Assembly (NCBI RefSeq): GCF_006345805.1
Contig: NC_043005.1
Span: 19,778,001-19,842,000 of the forward strand
DNA: 64,000 nucleotides
Source: Octopus sinensis
Lineage: Eukaryota
Direction of reading: 5' to 3'
Below are positions 18,353 through 45,332 of this stretch, in pieces. Numbering within the stretch: the first letter of the stretch is position 1; each line of letters opens with the position of its first letter. The notes below the pieces were generated by a model, which was given only the letters and a program-made list of their open reading frames with translations, had not been told where the DNA came from and did not search any database. Made by a program: the position numbers and the translations under genes.

Positions 18353-18920
18353 TTAAATTTTTTTTCCTTTTCCTTGTGAATTTCTCTGTGTCAGTATGTT
18401 CGGATGGTTGAGTCTGGGTTTGTACTTTTCAATGAAGAATGTTTCCTTGTTCAGTCTCATTTGTGTTGATGATCCGAAAGCACATTGGTAAAATGGGAAG
18501 ATTAAAAATTGTGGCAGTAGTTGCTTTGCGCATTTCTCAATGTGCTCACTAAAAGGTATCATTCTATATTCTGGGAATGCAATCTGTTGTCGATGCAGTG
18601 TGCATCTACGCCTGAGTGATAGTCCCGTGGAACCCACGTAGTCCTGGTGGCAGCCCGAGCATTTTATGACATAAATTATGTTTTCAGAGGCACAAGTAAA
18701 GTTAGATTTGATCTTGAATTTTTGTCCCTCTTTAAAGAGGAATTCTGATCCTTCTAGCAGGTTAGGGCATGTTGCACAGTTCGATCTACCACATTTTTTT
18801 ACTTTTGCATCCGTAATTTCAGAAGACAATTTTGCCTTTGTGAGAATCTTTTTAAGTGATTTAGGCTGTTTGTAGCTTTTAATGATTTGGTGTATGTTTA
18901 GAATTTCCTTTAATTTGGGG
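18353..18920 (-). pseudogene. PLE Cys-rich linker and GIY-YIG endonuclease
   Basis: KKCGRSNCATCPNL...FTCASENIIYVIKCSGCHQDYVGSTGLSLRRR..H...RLNKETFFIEKYKP.LN. Confidence 0.92.
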
Positions 18921-18922
18921 TT

Positions 18923-20690
18923 TTAATGAAGTATCGGTAAATTCTGGGTGATGATGGTGAAGGCTTCTTTGTTTCTGGGGTTGTATGTAGATATGTAAGG
19001 TAGTATTTTCGGGGAAGGTGTGTTGTTGTGTTGAACTTTTCTTAAAGTTTCTATGTTGATTTCTGTTGCACGTCTGATACCATCTTCTATGAGTTGAGCT
19101 GGGTAATGTCTGTCAATTAGGGTGTTTTTGAGTTCTTGCAGTCTAAAGTTCCTGGTATTTTGTTCTGACACTATTGTGCATATCCTTCTTGCAAGGTTGA
19201 AGGGATGTTTGTTTTAGTGTGTCTTGGGTGGCATGAATTAAAAAGAAGGTATTGTTTGGCGTCTGTGGCTTTGTAAAAAATGTCTGTTTCTATTTTAAGG
19301 TTAATTTTTTTAATTAGTACATCCAAGAACGGGAGCTCCTTTTGGTTGTATTCCATTGTGAACTGTATATTTGGGTTTATGCTGTTCAATAGGTTTTTAA
19401 ATTTTAGGAGTTTATCTATGTTTTCATTCCAGAGAATGAAACAATCGTATAGGAATCGTTTCCAATTCTCTTTTATGTATTGAGAGAGGGAGTTTCCAAA
19501 GATTGATAAAGATTCCTGGCAAATGATTATTTCCATGTATCCCATTGTTAAGTTCGCAATGACTGGTGCTGCCCTTGTACCCATAGCAATTCCGGATTTT
19601 TGACGGTAAAATGTATTGTCAAACATGAAGTGGTTATTGTGTAGGATGAATTCAATTGATTTAGTAATGAATTCTTTACTGATCCTTTTTGGTATTTCTT
19701 CCGGAAATTGGTCTAACCAGAACTGTATTGCCTCCAGTCCATAATTATGAGGTATACTGGTATACAAGTTGACTACATCAAATGAAACCAGGATTGTTTC
19801 TTCCTTGGTTTTTTTTGGAAGGTGGTTTAACATATCTAAGTCATCTCTGATATGGCTATCGATATGTTAAGGAAGGGTTTCAGGAGGATGTCCATAAGTA
19901 GACTTAGTCTGTGTGTTTCACAGGTTGGGCCAGCTACAATGGGTCGTAGTTTTAGGTCCCCCGGTTAGGTGTGTGTATGTATGTCTTTGGTGATTTTTTA
20001 ATGGTTTCATTTATAATTTGACTTTTATGAATTTTTGGCTAGAAAAGGCATTTAAAGTTTGTTAGGAAGTCAATCTCTTTGGTTGTCAGTTCCTTTTCAT
20101 GGGTTTTAATTAGTGAAGATAGAGTTTTCATTATTTTTTGTGGGGTGTAGTTGGTAATTTTTTCATAATGTAGGTCGTCATCAAGCAAGGAAATTACAAG
20201 ATTTCTGTAGTATGATGTATCCATTATTACAACTGCATTTCCCTTGTCCGCTTCCTTAATGGTTATATCTTCATCATTTTGAAGTTCTATCAGTTCTTTC
20301 CATTGTGTAGTGTTAAAATTTGAGTTAGCTTTCTGTTTATGTATAGTATGGTAGGGAAAGTTCTCAATGTGGTTACAGAATTCGTCAAGATCTTTATTTC
20401 TTCCTCTGTGTGGGATGTGTTCACTTTTGTTCTTGACTAGTGATTCATCTTCAGTATTGAAACTGGTTGATGCTTCTGCTAGTCTTAATTTTCTGCAAAA
20501 TTCTGTTATATTATCCTTGATTTCATTTAGGTTGGCTCTGCGTGGAGTTGGTGTAAATTTGAGCCCTTTTGAGAGGATGTCAATTTTTATGTTAGAAAGA
20601 GGTTTAGTTGAAAGATTGATTATCTTCGGTTTTTCCTTATTACTAGGTTCCAGCCTGTGTCCTGGTGTCCCTGGCCCCTGGCTAAAAAAT
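18923..20690 (-). pseudogene. PLE reverse transcriptase, disrupted
   Basis: I translated the frame as open from ~20795 to the stop at 20039. After that there is a small deletion/stop before PKIHK and further frameshifts (track ORFs 19171..19833 and 18923..19171). The catalytic DD reads YD (RFLYDCF). Confidence 0.92.
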
Positions 20691-21975
20691 GTTGGGTGTA
20701 ATTTTGTTTGTATGAGTTGTCTGAGAGGTTGTGTGATATTGGGTCGGGGAGGTGGTGGTATTGTTGCCCCCGATCGTTGTGTGTGTGTGGGAATCTATGG
20801 TTGTTTTTGTTTGTGGTGTGAGTAAAATTTCTGTATGGGAAATACTTTTGTTTCGAACTACTTGTATGTGGGATGTTGCTTGACAAAGTGTTTTTTTGCG
20901 TTTGTCTTGTGTTTAGTGGGGACCAGTAATTTTGGTTCATGGGGTAGTAGCGACTTGTGTGTGGTGTATTTCTTATTCTAGTGTCGTTTTGTGCTGTATG
21001 GTGGTTGGGCCTGGTATTAGGATGTTGTTGGTGTGTTCTGTTTTTGGTGTAATTTATTTCATAGACGCGTCGTCTGTCAGCTAGTTCCCTGTTAGGTCTT
21101 GCGTGGTTTGCAAAGGTTGGTTGTGGGTGATTTCTGTTTTTAGTGTATGGAGGATAGTTGGGGGTTGTTCGTGGGTTGTTTGGTTTTTCTTTTTTATTTT
21201 TTGTGATTTTCTTAAGGAAGGGATTATTTGTACCCAATTCATTTTTGAAAGTTGTACTATATTTTTGGAAGAAGTCCATGTTTTTCTCCCAGCGCAGGGG
21301 AGAATTTCTCTCTTCTTTTTCACAAGTATCCTTCCAATGATCTAATGTATTTTCGAGGGGTTGTCCCTCGGTATGTTTCAGTATTATATTGTGCATCTCC
21401 TCGTCGATACTTTTAAATTTTTCCTCATTTGTGAAGGCTCTTAGTCTTAGAAGCTCTATTTCTGATCTAAAATTGAACAGAGCTGACTTTTCCCTAATAG
21501 TTCTCTGTCCGTCAGGCTCGTTAGGTATTAATTTTATCTGGAATTTGCGTGGGAGGATAATTGGTGTTGAGTTCATCCATCCCTCGTAAATGTCTGCTTT
21601 GTTGGAATTTTTTATCATGTTCCAGAAGGCGAGTTTTCTGTTGTGCAGGTTTGTATTCCAAATGTTTCCTATTTTTCTTTTTGCTGGGTTAATTCGGGTG
21701 CGTATGATGTCCTGCTGTGTTTCATTTGGTGCGTGTTTATTATTTTCGGATTTGTTGATAAGAATTGAATTTAGTGTTGTGTATAACAGTTGCAAATCCT
21801 TACTAACCTGGTCAGTGTAGCGAGTTATATCTTCATTGCTTTTACTTTCCCGGGCGAGTAGGTTTGATTCCTCGATTTTGTTGTTCAGGTTAGAAAGCTG
21901 TGTATTAATATTTTTCAGTTCTTTGAGTATATCCTCATTTGTGTTTTTATCCGAGGTGTTGGTCTTCTGTGGCAT
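20620..21975 (-). CDS. PLE ORF1, 451 aa from MPQKTN; predicted N-terminal coiled coil and low-complexity N/T/H/Q/P-rich C-terminus
   Basis: Stop-free frame, part of track ORF 20620..22080. The first 35 aa of the track ORF come from a microsatellite, so the likely start is the ATG at 21975. Confidence 0.7.
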   Translation of the reverse strand: MPQKTNTSDKNTNEDILKELKNINTQLSNLNNKIEESNLLARESKSNEDITRYTDQVSKDLQLLYTTLNSILINKSENNKHAPNETQQDIIRTRINPAKRKIGNIWNTNLHNRKLAFWNMIKNSNKADIYEGWMNSTPIILPRKFQIKLIPNEPDGQRTIREKSALFNFRSEIELLRLRAFTNEEKFKSIDEEMHNIILKHTEGQPLENTLDHWKDTCEKEERNSPLRWEKNMDFFQKYSTTFKNELGTNNPFLKKITKNKKEKPNNPRTTPNYPPYTKNRNHPQPTFANHARPNRELADRRRVYEINYTKNRTHQQHPNTRPNHHTAQNDTRIRNTPHTSRYYPMNQNYWSPLNTRQTQKNTLSSNIPHTSSSKQKYFPYRNFTHTTNKNNHRFPHTHNDRGQQYHHLPDPISHNLSDNSYKQNYTQHFLARGQGHQDTGWNLVIRKNRR

Positions 21976-22106
21976 TTTCGGTCTCACGTGTTTAATATAT
22001 GGATAAGAAAGTTGGTTTGTGGTATGTATGTATGTATATATTATGTATACATATGTAAATATATACATACACACGTACATACATACATATGCATGTATTT
22101 ATGTAA

Positions 22107-42305: not shown

Positions 42306-42866
42306 CTCCGAAAAGATAAAAGGCAAGGTTGGTATCAACTGAATGTAAACTTAGAATGTAATTTTTCCAGACTTTTTCCAGACGCTCCAACAATTCTGTC
42401 AACCTTCCCCCTTAAAACCAAAATAATAAAGCCAAACTCACCTTCTCCAAAAGAATATGTAAAAACCTCCATTTGTCTATTGATTTTACATGATAAGAGA
42501 CATCATCAATGGGTGATGAACCTATTGATCTTAAAGTAAGATCAAGTAAGATCTAAATCATCTTAAGGCCGCAGCCAAGGAGTTGATCTCAAGGGGTTGA
42601 CCTCAGCATTGCATATGAACCGACTGCTTATCAATTTTAAAAGCATTAACTTACGGCAAACAGTGACTATAGGTGAACTGGTCTATTTTACAAGTTATGT
42701 TAAAGCGAACGCTAACATCGTTCAGAGAGTGAACCAAAAGATTTAATTAATTAAAGTTACATCTCTAGCGATGAGAATAATCATTATCTTAATGATTAAT
42801 TCTAATCTAGAAAGACAGGGTGTCTTGGTCATGGATACAGAGTAATGTCGAGGGAGAAGGTAAAGA

Positions 42867-43555
42867 AGGACTTCTTGGAAAGTTCCAAAGATGGGAAAGG
42901 GGAGGAAAGACCTCCTGGAAAGTTCCGAAGAGGGGAAGAAAAGTCCCGAGTAGTGGAAGCGAATTTCCGGGGAAAGAGTCTTCCTTAAAAGTTCCAAGGA
43001 TGGGAACATCCTGGAAGGAACTGAGGAGGGACAAGCATCCTGGAAAGTTCCGAGGAGGAATGGAAGAAAGATCCCTGGAGAGTTACAAGGAGGGGAGGAA
43101 GGAGAGAAAGAATTTCCTGGAGACTTCCGATGATGGGGACTTCCTGGAAAGTTCCGAGGAGAGGGACTTCCTGGAAAGTTCTGAGGATGGGAGCTTCCTA
43201 GATAGTTCCGTGGAGGTGAGCGAGGACTTCCTGGAAAGTTCAGATGAGAGGAAGGAAGGTCTTCTTGGAAAGTTCCGAGGAAGGGGAGGATGGGGACGAA
43301 AGTTTCCCTGGAAAGTTCCGAAGAGCATGAGGAAAGAGAGGAAGGACTTCTTGGGAATTTCCAAGGAAGGGGTTCTTCCTGGAAATTTTCAATGGGGCGG
43401 GGAAGGACTTCTTCGAAAATTCCCAGTATGGGGATTTACTGGAAAGTTCCGAGGAGGGGAGGAAGGATTCCTGGAAAGTCCCGAGGAAGGGAACTTCCTG
43501 CAAAATTCCGAGAAGGGGAAAGACAGGAAGGACTTCTTGGAAATTCCGAGGACTT
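42867..43555. repeat. Irregular tandem array of ~20 copies of GGACTTCCTGGAAAGTTCCGAGG with variable purine-rich linkers
   Basis: Copies counted by eye, e.g. at 42867, 42908, 43033, 43136, 43163, 43223, 43257, 43300, 43343, 43431, 43464 and 43529. Confidence 0.92.
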
Positions 43556-43667
43556 CGTTTACCAAATTTTCGTAAATATGCGCATATAGAAATTCAGACA
43601 CAGGTACGCCCAAAATATATGCATTTATCCACGTGTGTGTGTAAATATATATGCATGCGTGTGTATC

Positions 43668-43774
<107 letters not shown>

Positions 43775-43779
43775 GACTG

Positions 43780-44724
43780 TTTGCTGAAACGTTCATAGGC
43801 TGACTAAGAAGTAGTGATGCTAGAGCTGTGAAATTTTGCGTACCTTAAATTCAACTCTTTCTACTTATAACACCGTTGTTTCTTTTCAAGTAAACATCTG
43901 GCTGTTCAAAGAATATTTCAAAAGTATCTAGTAGCGATGAACAAAACATGCAGAAATGGGGTTTAGCCCCCATCAACTTTCATGCTAACGTGATTGCTAC
44001 ATTAGGGGATATCGCTCCAGCTTTATTAACAGTGCAAAATTGGACAGCTGAATTTTGGAGTGGAAGAGTCTTGAAGATGTCCCATGGTCTGGACGTTCTG
44101 TCACTGCCACCACCGAGGAAAACATTGGTCGTGTTCACAACATGGTGATGGTTGGCAAGCGATTGACTATAAATCAACTAGCCAATGCTATTAGCATATC
44201 CCGTGAGTGAATTCAGAATATTATGCCCAATGAACTTGGCATGAAGAATGTTTCTGCTCGGTGATTGAACGTCTTCTGACATCTGATCAGAGGCGCACCA
44301 GGCTGATCACATCACGGGAAAAACTGACATTGTTTGAGGCACATCCAGCTAGTTTCCTTGAGTATTGGTTTCATTGCTTTGAAATCAGAGACGGAGAAAC
44401 ACTTCTCCTCACCAGTTACAATGGAGGTCAAGGTAGTTTCATCTGCAGGGAAGGTGATAGCCTCAGTTTTTGAGATGCAAAAGGCATTGGGTCCATTGGC
44501 TATCTCCAAAAAGATAATGACGGTATATCTGCTGTTGATTACTGTTTTCTTTTACCAATAGTAAGAAAAGTTCTTCGCCAATAGGATGCAAGCATTGCAA
44601 CACTTATGGAAGAAGTGTGTGGACCGCAAGAGGGACTAGGACAAAACAATAAGCCTCATTTGGTCACATTTAATGGGAATATTCTTAGTAGTAATGGGAA
44701 TATTCTTCTTTTAGCCGATCCTCG
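43780..44724 (+). mobile_element. Mariner relic, internally deleted
   Basis: GLAP..HA..ATLGD.APA..TVQ.W.AEF..GR HTH region, RLLTSDQRRTRLITSRE, and a right TIR-like end ttagccgatcctcg followed by TA. Confidence 0.85.
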
Positions 44725-45332
44725 TAAACAAATATAGACACTCTTAAATAACGGATACGACCATAAACAGACGATTCAAACACACAGAAACCAACATCAC
44801 AATTCAAGCAAAGACACAAGCATACATACTCTCCACCGTTCGTTCATACCCATAAAGTCACCCATAACCACGCTTATAGACAATTCACCCAGAGGACACT
44901 CATGCACAAATAAATGCAATCAACCACATGCTTACAATATGTCACAAAACAGTAACTTTAAATAGTTCAGTACAAAATATAAACAAACAAGTGAACAAAA
45001 AATATATAGACAATTAATTGTAACGGATGTAACAATAGATATATGACTCAAACAAAGCAAAGCTTAATTGATACATCAATAGCTATTTAAACGTGCGTAA
45101 TTGCATTAATTGAAGCATTCTATCGGCTCACTAAATGTAAAATTGCAATTGAGGTACACTAAGATGATAATAAAATTAGATATAACAAATATGAGATGCA
45201 ATGCAATTGTGGGTAGATGGATGTTATAGTTCTCATTAAGAAAATAATCGTTATGATGACACAGAAAGAATTAATAACGCTCGGATTATTGGTAGAATTA
45301 TGATCCGTCGCTACTAGGGGTACTATGATTGT

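What the first reader, a model, noticed from the sequence alone, without database searches (positions are those of the whole stretch)
42867..43555. Array of ~20 overlapping STAT(GAS)/kappaB-like palindromic motifs with variable linkers
Seen in sequence: the core GGACTTCCTGGAAAGTTCC recurs every ~23-45 bp in the same orientation. The core is conserved while the G/A-rich linkers vary in length and sequence, unlike an ordinary fixed-period minisatellite. About nine copies by my count keep TTC-N3-GAA exactly, several more are TTC-N4-GAA, and 43353-43362 is GGGAATTTCC. The core is itself imperfectly palindromic. Established knowledge: TTCN3GAA is the STAT GAS element, TTCCT(A/G)GAA is also BCL6-like, and GGGRNWYYCC is the kappaB site. 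Inference: a homotypic immune-responsive enhancer or factor-decoy array, or a protein-binding repeat region of an unrecognised mobile or viral element. Nothing else in the window resembles it.
Basis: partly seen in the sequence, partly recalled or inferred. Interest (0 to 1): 0.72.

Follow-up and report, generated by a model that had tools for sequence, protein, structure and literature searches.

The report
Mutation-prone minisatellite spread by transposons
This 700-base repeat is one stray copy of a short-unit repeat family scattered over at least 124 places in a large animal (likely octopus) genome, often inside DNA transposons, where the repeat carries two to three times more mutations than the transposon around it, likely because it keeps breaking and being sloppily repaired; nothing here points to an immune enhancer.

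Summary
The array is real: 20 units, 10 TTC-N3-GAA where 0.3 are expected. It is an orphan member of a dispersed minisatellite family: 262 exact copies of the 20-base core genome-wide, at least 124 arrays of 70-7,128 bp with about seven linker types. Many sit at internal breakpoints of a non-autonomous hAT-like pack element and a piggyBac; array-free sisters exist. STAT-defining bases decay like their neighbours in the window (p=0.86), so enhancer function is unsupported. The surprise: arrays are 2.2-3 times more mutated than the flanks of the same transposon copies, share no variants between loci (887 units), show little CpG excess, and a transversion-rich load also marks flanks of array-bearing copies but not of array-free sisters (p=0.0006). 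Best reading: arrays were local break and error-prone-repair hotspots, which reshuffled units, deleted flanks and seeded new sites. Whether a bound factor (STAT/Rel) caused the breaks is untested. The scan earlier noted other TF-motif satellites in this genome, not this family.

The parts
42850..43556 (+). Minisatellite array, 20 units of 27-43 bp, purine-rich linker type; orphan member of the genome-wide family
   Evidence: no close relative (best non-self 69% over 440 bp among 40 of 247 candidates scored)
43141..43160 (+). The one unit that keeps the family's 20-base core exactly (TTCCTGGAAAGTTCCGAGGA); contains a GAS-type palindrome overlapping a kappaB-like decamer
   Evidence: motif names recalled
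43353..43362 (+). GGGAATTTCC, a kappaB-consensus match made by private substitutions in one core
43473..43482 (-). Second kappaB-consensus match, again a one-base variant of the core
42868..42911 (+). Place where another individual's contig carries about 41 extra bases (one more unit, inferred from record geometry)
   Evidence: table 8: X8 record 22; X4 record 7 fits
42690..42820 (.). Not part of the array: remnant of an unrelated old dispersed repeat on the left flank
   Evidence: 0 of 11 other copies has an array
43557..43668 (.). Right flank, unique among the loci held; no target-site duplication with the left flank
   Evidence: longest shared word 6 bases, 30-40 bases from the ends

Best explanation
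This is an orphan copy of a dispersed minisatellite family that rode in non-autonomous DNA transposons and that likely acted as a local DNA-break hotspot mended by error-prone repair. Shown: family, carriers, array-free sisters, junction microhomology, reshuffled unit order, excess mutation. Inferred steps: (1) a young homogeneous array was captured at a break inside a transposon and copied with it; (2) breaks or stalls in the array were repaired by template switching from core to core, which changed unit order, folded segments back at the palindromic core, joined different linker types and deleted transposon sequence up to the array; (3) the repair synthesis was inaccurate and left about 4-8% extra, CpG-blind, transversion-rich substitutions in the array and a weaker halo in its flanks; (4) array pieces were also used as filler at unrelated breaks, which would give orphans like this one; (5) the process faded as units diverged. 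The STAT/kappaB look comes from the consensus unit and is not under selection here.
For: Family. Carriers: element with imperfect terminal inverted repeats and an 8-bp target duplication (perfect in one copy, 7/8 in another); 31 of 48 type-C arrays flank it; piggyBac-type ends and PF13843. Empty sites: piggyBac 5 of 30 array-bearing, 7 intact, 18 short deletion form; pack element 14 of 30 with the array or its stub at one junction, 12 without; native LINE sequence at a second junction in 3 loci, 15 sisters with the array, one independent inverted insertion at the same site. Sisters share only 100-170 bp of array. Load: flanks 4.3-4.4% rising to 5.5, 8.7, 12.6% into the array; matched ratio 2.2-3.0. 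No sharing between arrays: 40 pairs share 6 or more derived bases against about 41 by permutation, none 8 or more. Fit: type C = 0.8 x carrier decay (0.54-1.07) + 2.7% per alternative base (2.3-3.2); window type 1.6 x + about 2%. Halo: ts:tv 93:99 beside arrays against 98:48 in sisters free at that junction, p=0.0006, private only p=0.01; transversions fall with distance from the second junction, p=0.011; piggyBac private load 3.9 against 2.4%, p=0.019. Fold-back inversions at the core in L061, L063.
Against: The window copy has no carrier, no target duplication and no empty site, so its own route is inferred. One truly orthologous pair diverged at the ordinary rate (11/188 against 14/300, p=0.67) and current differences between individuals are few in array and flank alike, so hypermutation must have been early. 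ts:tv of arrays does not differ from their own matched flanks (p=0.16-1.0) and an early small test found no spectrum difference from carriers (p=0.15). Total private load in pack-element flanks is not raised (2.4 against 2.6%, p=0.70). The strand folds no better than shuffles (z=0.30), against hairpin stalling. No break, enzyme or bound protein was observed. Copies are not independent of phylogeny, so p-values are optimistic.
Confidence: 0.58

Rival explanations
1. Arrays were templated from a large, old, already diverged satellite block (since lost or unassembled), through extrachromosomal circles or break repair; the extra load is the block's age.
For: Explains unshared interiors and chimeric types; model of PMC7403614 (abstract and section 12 read). 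Repeats are weakly methylated in octopus (PMC9476566, passages), so an old block could lack CpG excess.
Against: No donor for 3 of 3 arrays searched (best 69, 81, 79%; 40 candidates scored each); no unit-level donors among 887 units; longest array 7.1 kb of 85; contig depth gives no hint of a hidden block (not a copy number); extra load has transitions no commoner than each transversion, unlike SINE or carrier ageing; does not explain the flank halo.
Confidence: 0.12
2. A dedicated low-fidelity enzyme builds each array anew from a short fixed template (RNA or small circle), telomerase-like, at breaks.
For: Discrete unit lengths in changing order; star-like units; no chain copying (adjacent units share 0.57 of 4.1 derived bases); floor of 8.5% per type-C array; arrays abut U6 and 28S copies and LINE pieces in some loci.
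Against: Junction units of 15 sisters carry no shared errors and a lower load, which needs re-synthesis down to the junction each time; halo in flanks; no template gene, Rfam match or enzyme found; the genome has ordinary TTAGGG arrays.
Confidence: 0.1
3. Ordinary neutral minisatellite decay; the apparent excess is an artefact of subfamily variants, misalignment and wrong ancestral consensus.
For: Five of 52 columns carry frequent variants; GAS retention and core/linker rates look neutral; L047/L071 normal.
Against: Excess stays after dropping those columns and all units with indels (173 units, 33 arrays); matched same-copy ratio 2.2; variants confirmed in other runs.
Confidence: 0.12
4. Functional STAT/NF-kappaB enhancer or decoy kept by selection at this locus.
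For: 10 GAS matches; a STAT DNA-binding domain exists in the genome; core better kept than linkers in the window (p=0.004) and GAS bases slightly better kept family-wide (0.098 against 0.121, p=3e-5; G/C only p=0.008; A/T p=0.39); array present in four other runs.
Against: No GAS-specific conservation in the window (p=0.86); the family-wide effect comes from a few variable non-GAS columns, and in type C the GAS adenine is the most variable column (44% G); no host gene found nearby (small exons not excluded).
Confidence: 0.05
5. Coding repeat (254-aa open frame on +, 230-aa on -).
For: Open frames span the array.
Against: Spacings are often not multiples of three, so the frame changes register; 6 of 31 other arrays of like size are fully open too; no Pfam match.
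Confidence: 0.02

Closest known systems
Drosophila Rsp-like / 1.688 euchromatic satellites (PMC7403614; abstract and section 12 read)
   Same: Small dispersed arrays that spread to new sites and into other repeats through microhomology-mediated repair; bursts of spread.
   Different: Here 21-52 bp units with a shared core and many linker types, carried by DNA transposons, no donor block found, and an excess of unshared substitutions.
Pack-TIR elements, gap-filling and FoSTeST models (PMC8277862; passages read)
   Same: Non-autonomous TIR element with captured fragments, 0-4 bp microhomology at joins, multicopy.
   Different: Cargo is a patchwork of other repeats plus an unstable array that marks most deletion breakpoints; the window copy lies in no such element.
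Germline TF-bound sites that gain insertions, breakpoints and homotypic clusters (NRF1, PRDM9, CTCF; PMC8559717; abstract and passages read)
   Same: Motif clusters grow by duplication at sites prone to breaks.
   Different: Human, binding measured, short clusters; here no binding data, kilobase arrays, spread by transposons.
Mutagenic meiotic break repair and hotspot minisatellite instability (PMC7615360; passages read); human core-sharing minisatellites (recalled)
   Same: Break repair raises substitutions and rearranges tandem repeats near the break.
   Different: Load here is several percent per base; no hotspot mapping exists.
TE-borne minisatellites and satellites such as Xstir, miDNA4, pearl-linked bivalve satellites (PMC9659126; passages read)
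   Same: Tandem arrays inside non-autonomous DNA transposons.
   Different: Array is a late capture into several unrelated elements, not derived from the element's own sequence as far as seen.

Membership tests
Minisatellite / VNTR | Head-to-tail units of about 10-100 bp in arrays under about 20 kb | tested here: met
   units 21-52 bp, arrays 70-7,128 bp
Minisatellite / VNTR | Unit-number variation between individuals | tested here: inconclusive
   one extra unit inferred from two contigs, a 9-bp deletion in one run
Homotypic STAT/kappaB enhancer | Clustered consensus motifs | tested here: met
Homotypic STAT/kappaB enhancer | Motif bases conserved beyond neighbouring bases | tested here: not met
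Homotypic STAT/kappaB enhancer | Factor occupancy, accessibility, effect on a gene | not testable with these tools
   needs CUT&RUN, ATAC, reporter
Pack-TIR (hAT-like) carrier | Terminal inverted repeats and 8-bp target duplication | tested here: met
   two complete copies (8/8 and 7/8); hAT label from recalled TSD length
Pack-TIR (hAT-like) carrier | Captured host-repeat fragments, multicopy, no transposase | tested here: met
   autonomous partner not sought
Pack-TIR (hAT-like) carrier | The window array itself lies in such an element | tested here: not met
Foldback / subterminal-repeat transposon | Arrays form inverted arms at conserved termini with a target duplication | tested here: not met
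   ends vary, inversions are internal fold-backs
Classical satellite DNA | Large homogenised block | tested here: inconclusive
   none; no hint; assembly may lack it
Interstitial telomeric sequence | Made of the host telomere repeat | tested here: not met
   TTAGGG arrays exist apart; one linker type contains a single TTAGGG
Viral homologous-region repeats | Match to viral contigs or viral genes beside the array | tested here: not met
   0 exact matches; no viral frame seen in the flanks read

The most novel reading that the evidence does not exclude
A transcription-factor-bound selfish minisatellite: STAT or Rel (or a zinc-finger protein) occupying the core in germline cells causes breaks and error-prone repair, so the motif breeds its own arrays, mutates them and their flanks by several percent, and hitchhikes on DNA transposons; with the NRF1-type and other TF-site satellites noted earlier in this genome it would be a general route by which signalling-factor sites multiply without selection.
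Probability: 0.2. Interest if true: 0.85.

Novelty: new variant of a known kind. Interest (0 to 1): 0.55.

Why it matters
The locus itself is probably junk. The family is a natural experiment: dozens of sister transposon copies with and without the array give a built-in control, and they show that a short repeat raised the substitution load of itself two- to threefold and shifted the spectrum of its flanks. That makes a long-open question testable in an invertebrate: whether motif clusters and minisatellites arise from protein-bound, break-prone germline DNA and not from selection. It also warns that dense STAT/kappaB clusters in this genome need not be enhancers, and that repeat ages read from divergence can be off by a factor of three.

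Tried and rejected
Left flank as shared element end: the matching part is an unrelated repeat, 0 of 11 copies with arrays. Target duplication around the window array: none. Empty site in other runs: not seen, array covered in 4 of 4 runs laid (SINE in the query crowded the tables). Expression: no RNA holder listed, no evidence either way. Viral contigs 0, metagenome contigs 0 exact matches. Rfam: only a sub-threshold mir-297 hit on the simple repeat; no tRNA. Coding repeat rejected. Special hairpin stability: z=0.30. Donor arrays: none. Chain copying from the previous unit: rejected; no load gradient from array ends across 33 arrays. Slippage to a neighbouring base explains part of A/T transitions only; transversions are raised 4.6-6 fold with or without a like neighbour. 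Strand asymmetry: none evident in the core table (read by eye). Within-array singleton load (4.8%) was set aside because recurrent hits in long arrays deflate it. Rows dropped: 8 expanded arrays and 5 polymorphic columns; L253; 5 L187 and 4 L157 pairs. Ten literature searches (listings only) showed no description of this family; Repbase and Dfam could not be searched, and no supplements were read.

Full report
Observation. The array is there as described. Twenty sites between 42868 and 43548 match the 19-base core at 12/19 or better, all on +, and only four single sites reach 14/19 elsewhere in the window. Ten TTC-N3-GAA, five TTC-N4-GAA and the GGGAATTTCC at 43353 are present; 0.29 GAS matches would be expected at the rate of the rest of the window. 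Spacings are 27-43, one 69. The window is G000:C9:19778001-19842000 of a 2.7-Gb genome; 'octopus' rests on earlier scan notes and on my recall of its SINEs. The surroundings are SINEs, simple repeats and transposon remnants; of 67 frames of 110 aa or more I scanned 8, and the hits were reverse-transcriptase and helix-turn-helix pieces. Small host exons are not excluded.

A family. The exact 20-mer TTCCTGGAAAGTTCCGAGGA occurs 262 times in the genome, the reversed control never. I examined 85 distinct arrays of 70-7,128 bp and 39 more of one type. All share the core; linkers fall into about seven types with discrete unit lengths (21/26/28; 29/34; 27; 33/34/43; 52; 21+29+23), in changing order, and some arrays switch type midway. 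Inverted stretches begin at a fold-back in the palindromic core (L061, L063). The window array is of the purine-rich type; its best relative is 69% alike over 440 bp (40 of 247 candidates scored). Its flanks are its own: the left repeat at 42690-42820 never goes with an array (0 of 11), and no target duplication was found. It is covered in 4 of 4 other runs laid, with one inferred extra unit and a 9-bp deletion.

Carriers. 24 of 85 arrays share a junction flank with another. One carrier is a 5-7 kb non-autonomous element with imperfect terminal inverted repeats and an 8-bp target duplication (8/8 in one copy, 7/8 in another), packed with LINE, mariner-end and SINE pieces (hAT label recalled). 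31 of 48 type-C arrays flank it, at many internal positions and in both orientations. The other is a piggyBac-type element (TTAA-CCC ends; PF13843 at 7e-21). Array-free sisters show that the array came second: of 30 piggyBac loci 5 carry it, 7 run on intact, 18 are a short deletion form; of 30 loci at one pack-element junction 14 carry the array or its stub through a 4-base microhomology, 12 do not, 4 are unrelated. At a second junction 15 sisters share one derived base, 3 loci keep the native LINE sequence, and one locus has another array type inserted inverted at the same site. This fits the gap-filling and template-switch models for Pack-TIRs (PMC8277862, passages) and microhomology-led satellite spread (PMC7403614, abstract and section 12).

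Is the motif selected? In the window the core has fewer substitutions than the linkers (0.115 against 0.203, p=0.004), but in type C, where the linker aligns without doubt, it does not (0.114 against 0.124, p=0.40). GAS-defining bases are not spared in the window (0.105 against 0.119, p=0.86). Family-wide they are slightly spared (0.098 against 0.121, p=3e-5; G/C p=0.008, A/T p=0.39), which a few variable non-GAS columns produce; in 465 type-C units the most variable column is a GAS adenine (44% G), and intact GAS sites are as frequent as independent decay predicts. A STAT domain exists in the genome, so binding is possible; selection on it is not seen.

The odd part. Carrier copies lie 2-5% from their consensus; array units 8.5-19%. 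Across one junction in six sisters the load goes 4.3, 4.4% in the flank, then 5.5, 8.7, 12.6%. Sisters share only 100-170 bp of array. At the second junction the units next to the join show no shared variants (raw load 10.9%, 40/572 = 7% by my hand count of the 11 in-register rows), so the founder array was at consensus. Among 887 units in 48 arrays, sharing of derived bases between arrays equals column permutation, and genome searches found no donor for three arrays. Adjacent units share 0.57 of 4.1 derived bases, so units were not copied in a chain. Without indel units, expanded arrays and polymorphic columns, type C fits 0.8 times carrier decay plus 2.7% per alternative base; the window's type fits 1.6 times plus about 2%. 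CpG transitions are barely raised (0.094-0.108 against 0.088). Variants are not assembly errors.

A result against, and what it showed. In matched copies the flank beside the array has the same ts:tv as the array (75:102 against 252:267, p=0.16; p=0.19 and 1.0), so the spectrum is not confined to the array. But sisters without the array at that junction show 98:48 on the same segment against 93:99 (p=0.0006; private variants only p=0.01), and transversions fall with distance from the second junction (p=0.011). Four of those nine sisters have an array 0.5-1.4 kb further on. Total flank load is not raised in the pack element (p=0.70) but is in piggyBac (p=0.019). A halo is what local error-prone repair would leave and what a donor block would not. 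One orthologous pair diverged normally, so the phase was early. Copies are related, so these p-values are optimistic.

Mechanism. Most likely (0.58) the young arrays were break or stall hotspots: repair switched template between cores, reshuffled units, deleted flanks, and miscopied bases; fragments filled breaks elsewhere, as here. Mutagenic break repair and hotspot minisatellite instability are documented in humans (PMC7615360, passages), as is motif duplication at germline factor-bound sites (PMC8559717, abstract and passages). Simple hairpins do not explain it (z=0.30), which leaves a bound protein as a fair guess; STAT or Rel is one candidate (0.2 for that whole case). Rivals: lost donor block 0.12, artefact or plain decay 0.12, dedicated templated polymerase 0.10, selected enhancer 0.05, coding 0.02.

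Novelty. TE-borne minisatellites are known (PMC9659126, passages). Ten searches (listings) showed nothing on this family; Dfam and Repbase were out of reach. The scan's own index had no look-alike but holds unreviewed notes on other TF-site satellites in this genome, which led me to the factor-bound reading. Verdict: new variant of a known kind, interest 0.55; the locus is ordinary, the controlled hypermutation signal of the family is what merits follow-up.

Noticed in passing
G000:C3:55.060-55.065 Mb (L041/L073/L074) and G000:C6:79.106-79.113 Mb (L058/L075/L076): A multicopy non-autonomous hAT-like pack element of 5-7 kb made of LINE, mariner-end and SINE fragments, 8-bp target duplication; many deletion derivatives.
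   Followed up: partly
L033:1299-1399; L035:3425-4051: A U6 copy directly abuts a 7-kb array and 28S rRNA fragments lie next to another: RNA-derived DNA at array junctions.
   Followed up: no
L004:2110-2210: About 100 bp of the locus's own upstream flank is inserted, inverted, inside a 27-bp array (read by eye): a templated insertion.
   Followed up: no
L066, L071, L070/L035, L039 flanks: Arrays join other minisatellites (a unit with ATGCAAAT, a 68-bp unit, a 34-bp unit, a GGTGCC-rich unit).
   Followed up: no
L002, L015, L036: A second array insertion in the piggyBac, antisense to the transposase, with a short SINE-like piece and a 20-40 bp duplication of piggyBac sequence around it.
   Followed up: partly
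L044:1950-2600: An array 20 bp inside what looks like a non-autonomous Helitron end (hairpin plus CTAG; signature recalled).
   Followed up: no
G000:C1:75755704-75773248: At least 17 kb of degenerate interstitial TTAGGG in mid-chromosome.
   Followed up: no
G000:C1 and C5: Exact-core loci cluster distally on these large contigs (3 of 3 beyond 201 of 213 Mb; 6 of 6 beyond 114 of 136 Mb); other searches found more central arrays.
   Followed up: no
window 18353-22098 (-): Broken retroelement with weak RVT_1 match and a downstream frame that looks GIY-YIG-like (recalled): Penelope-type.
   Followed up: no
window 43780-44725: Decayed mariner-like element after the GATA microsatellite (label recalled).
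   Followed up: no
type-C units, column 8: 44% carry A-to-G, turning TTC-N3-GAA into TTC-N4-GAA spacing.
   Followed up: no
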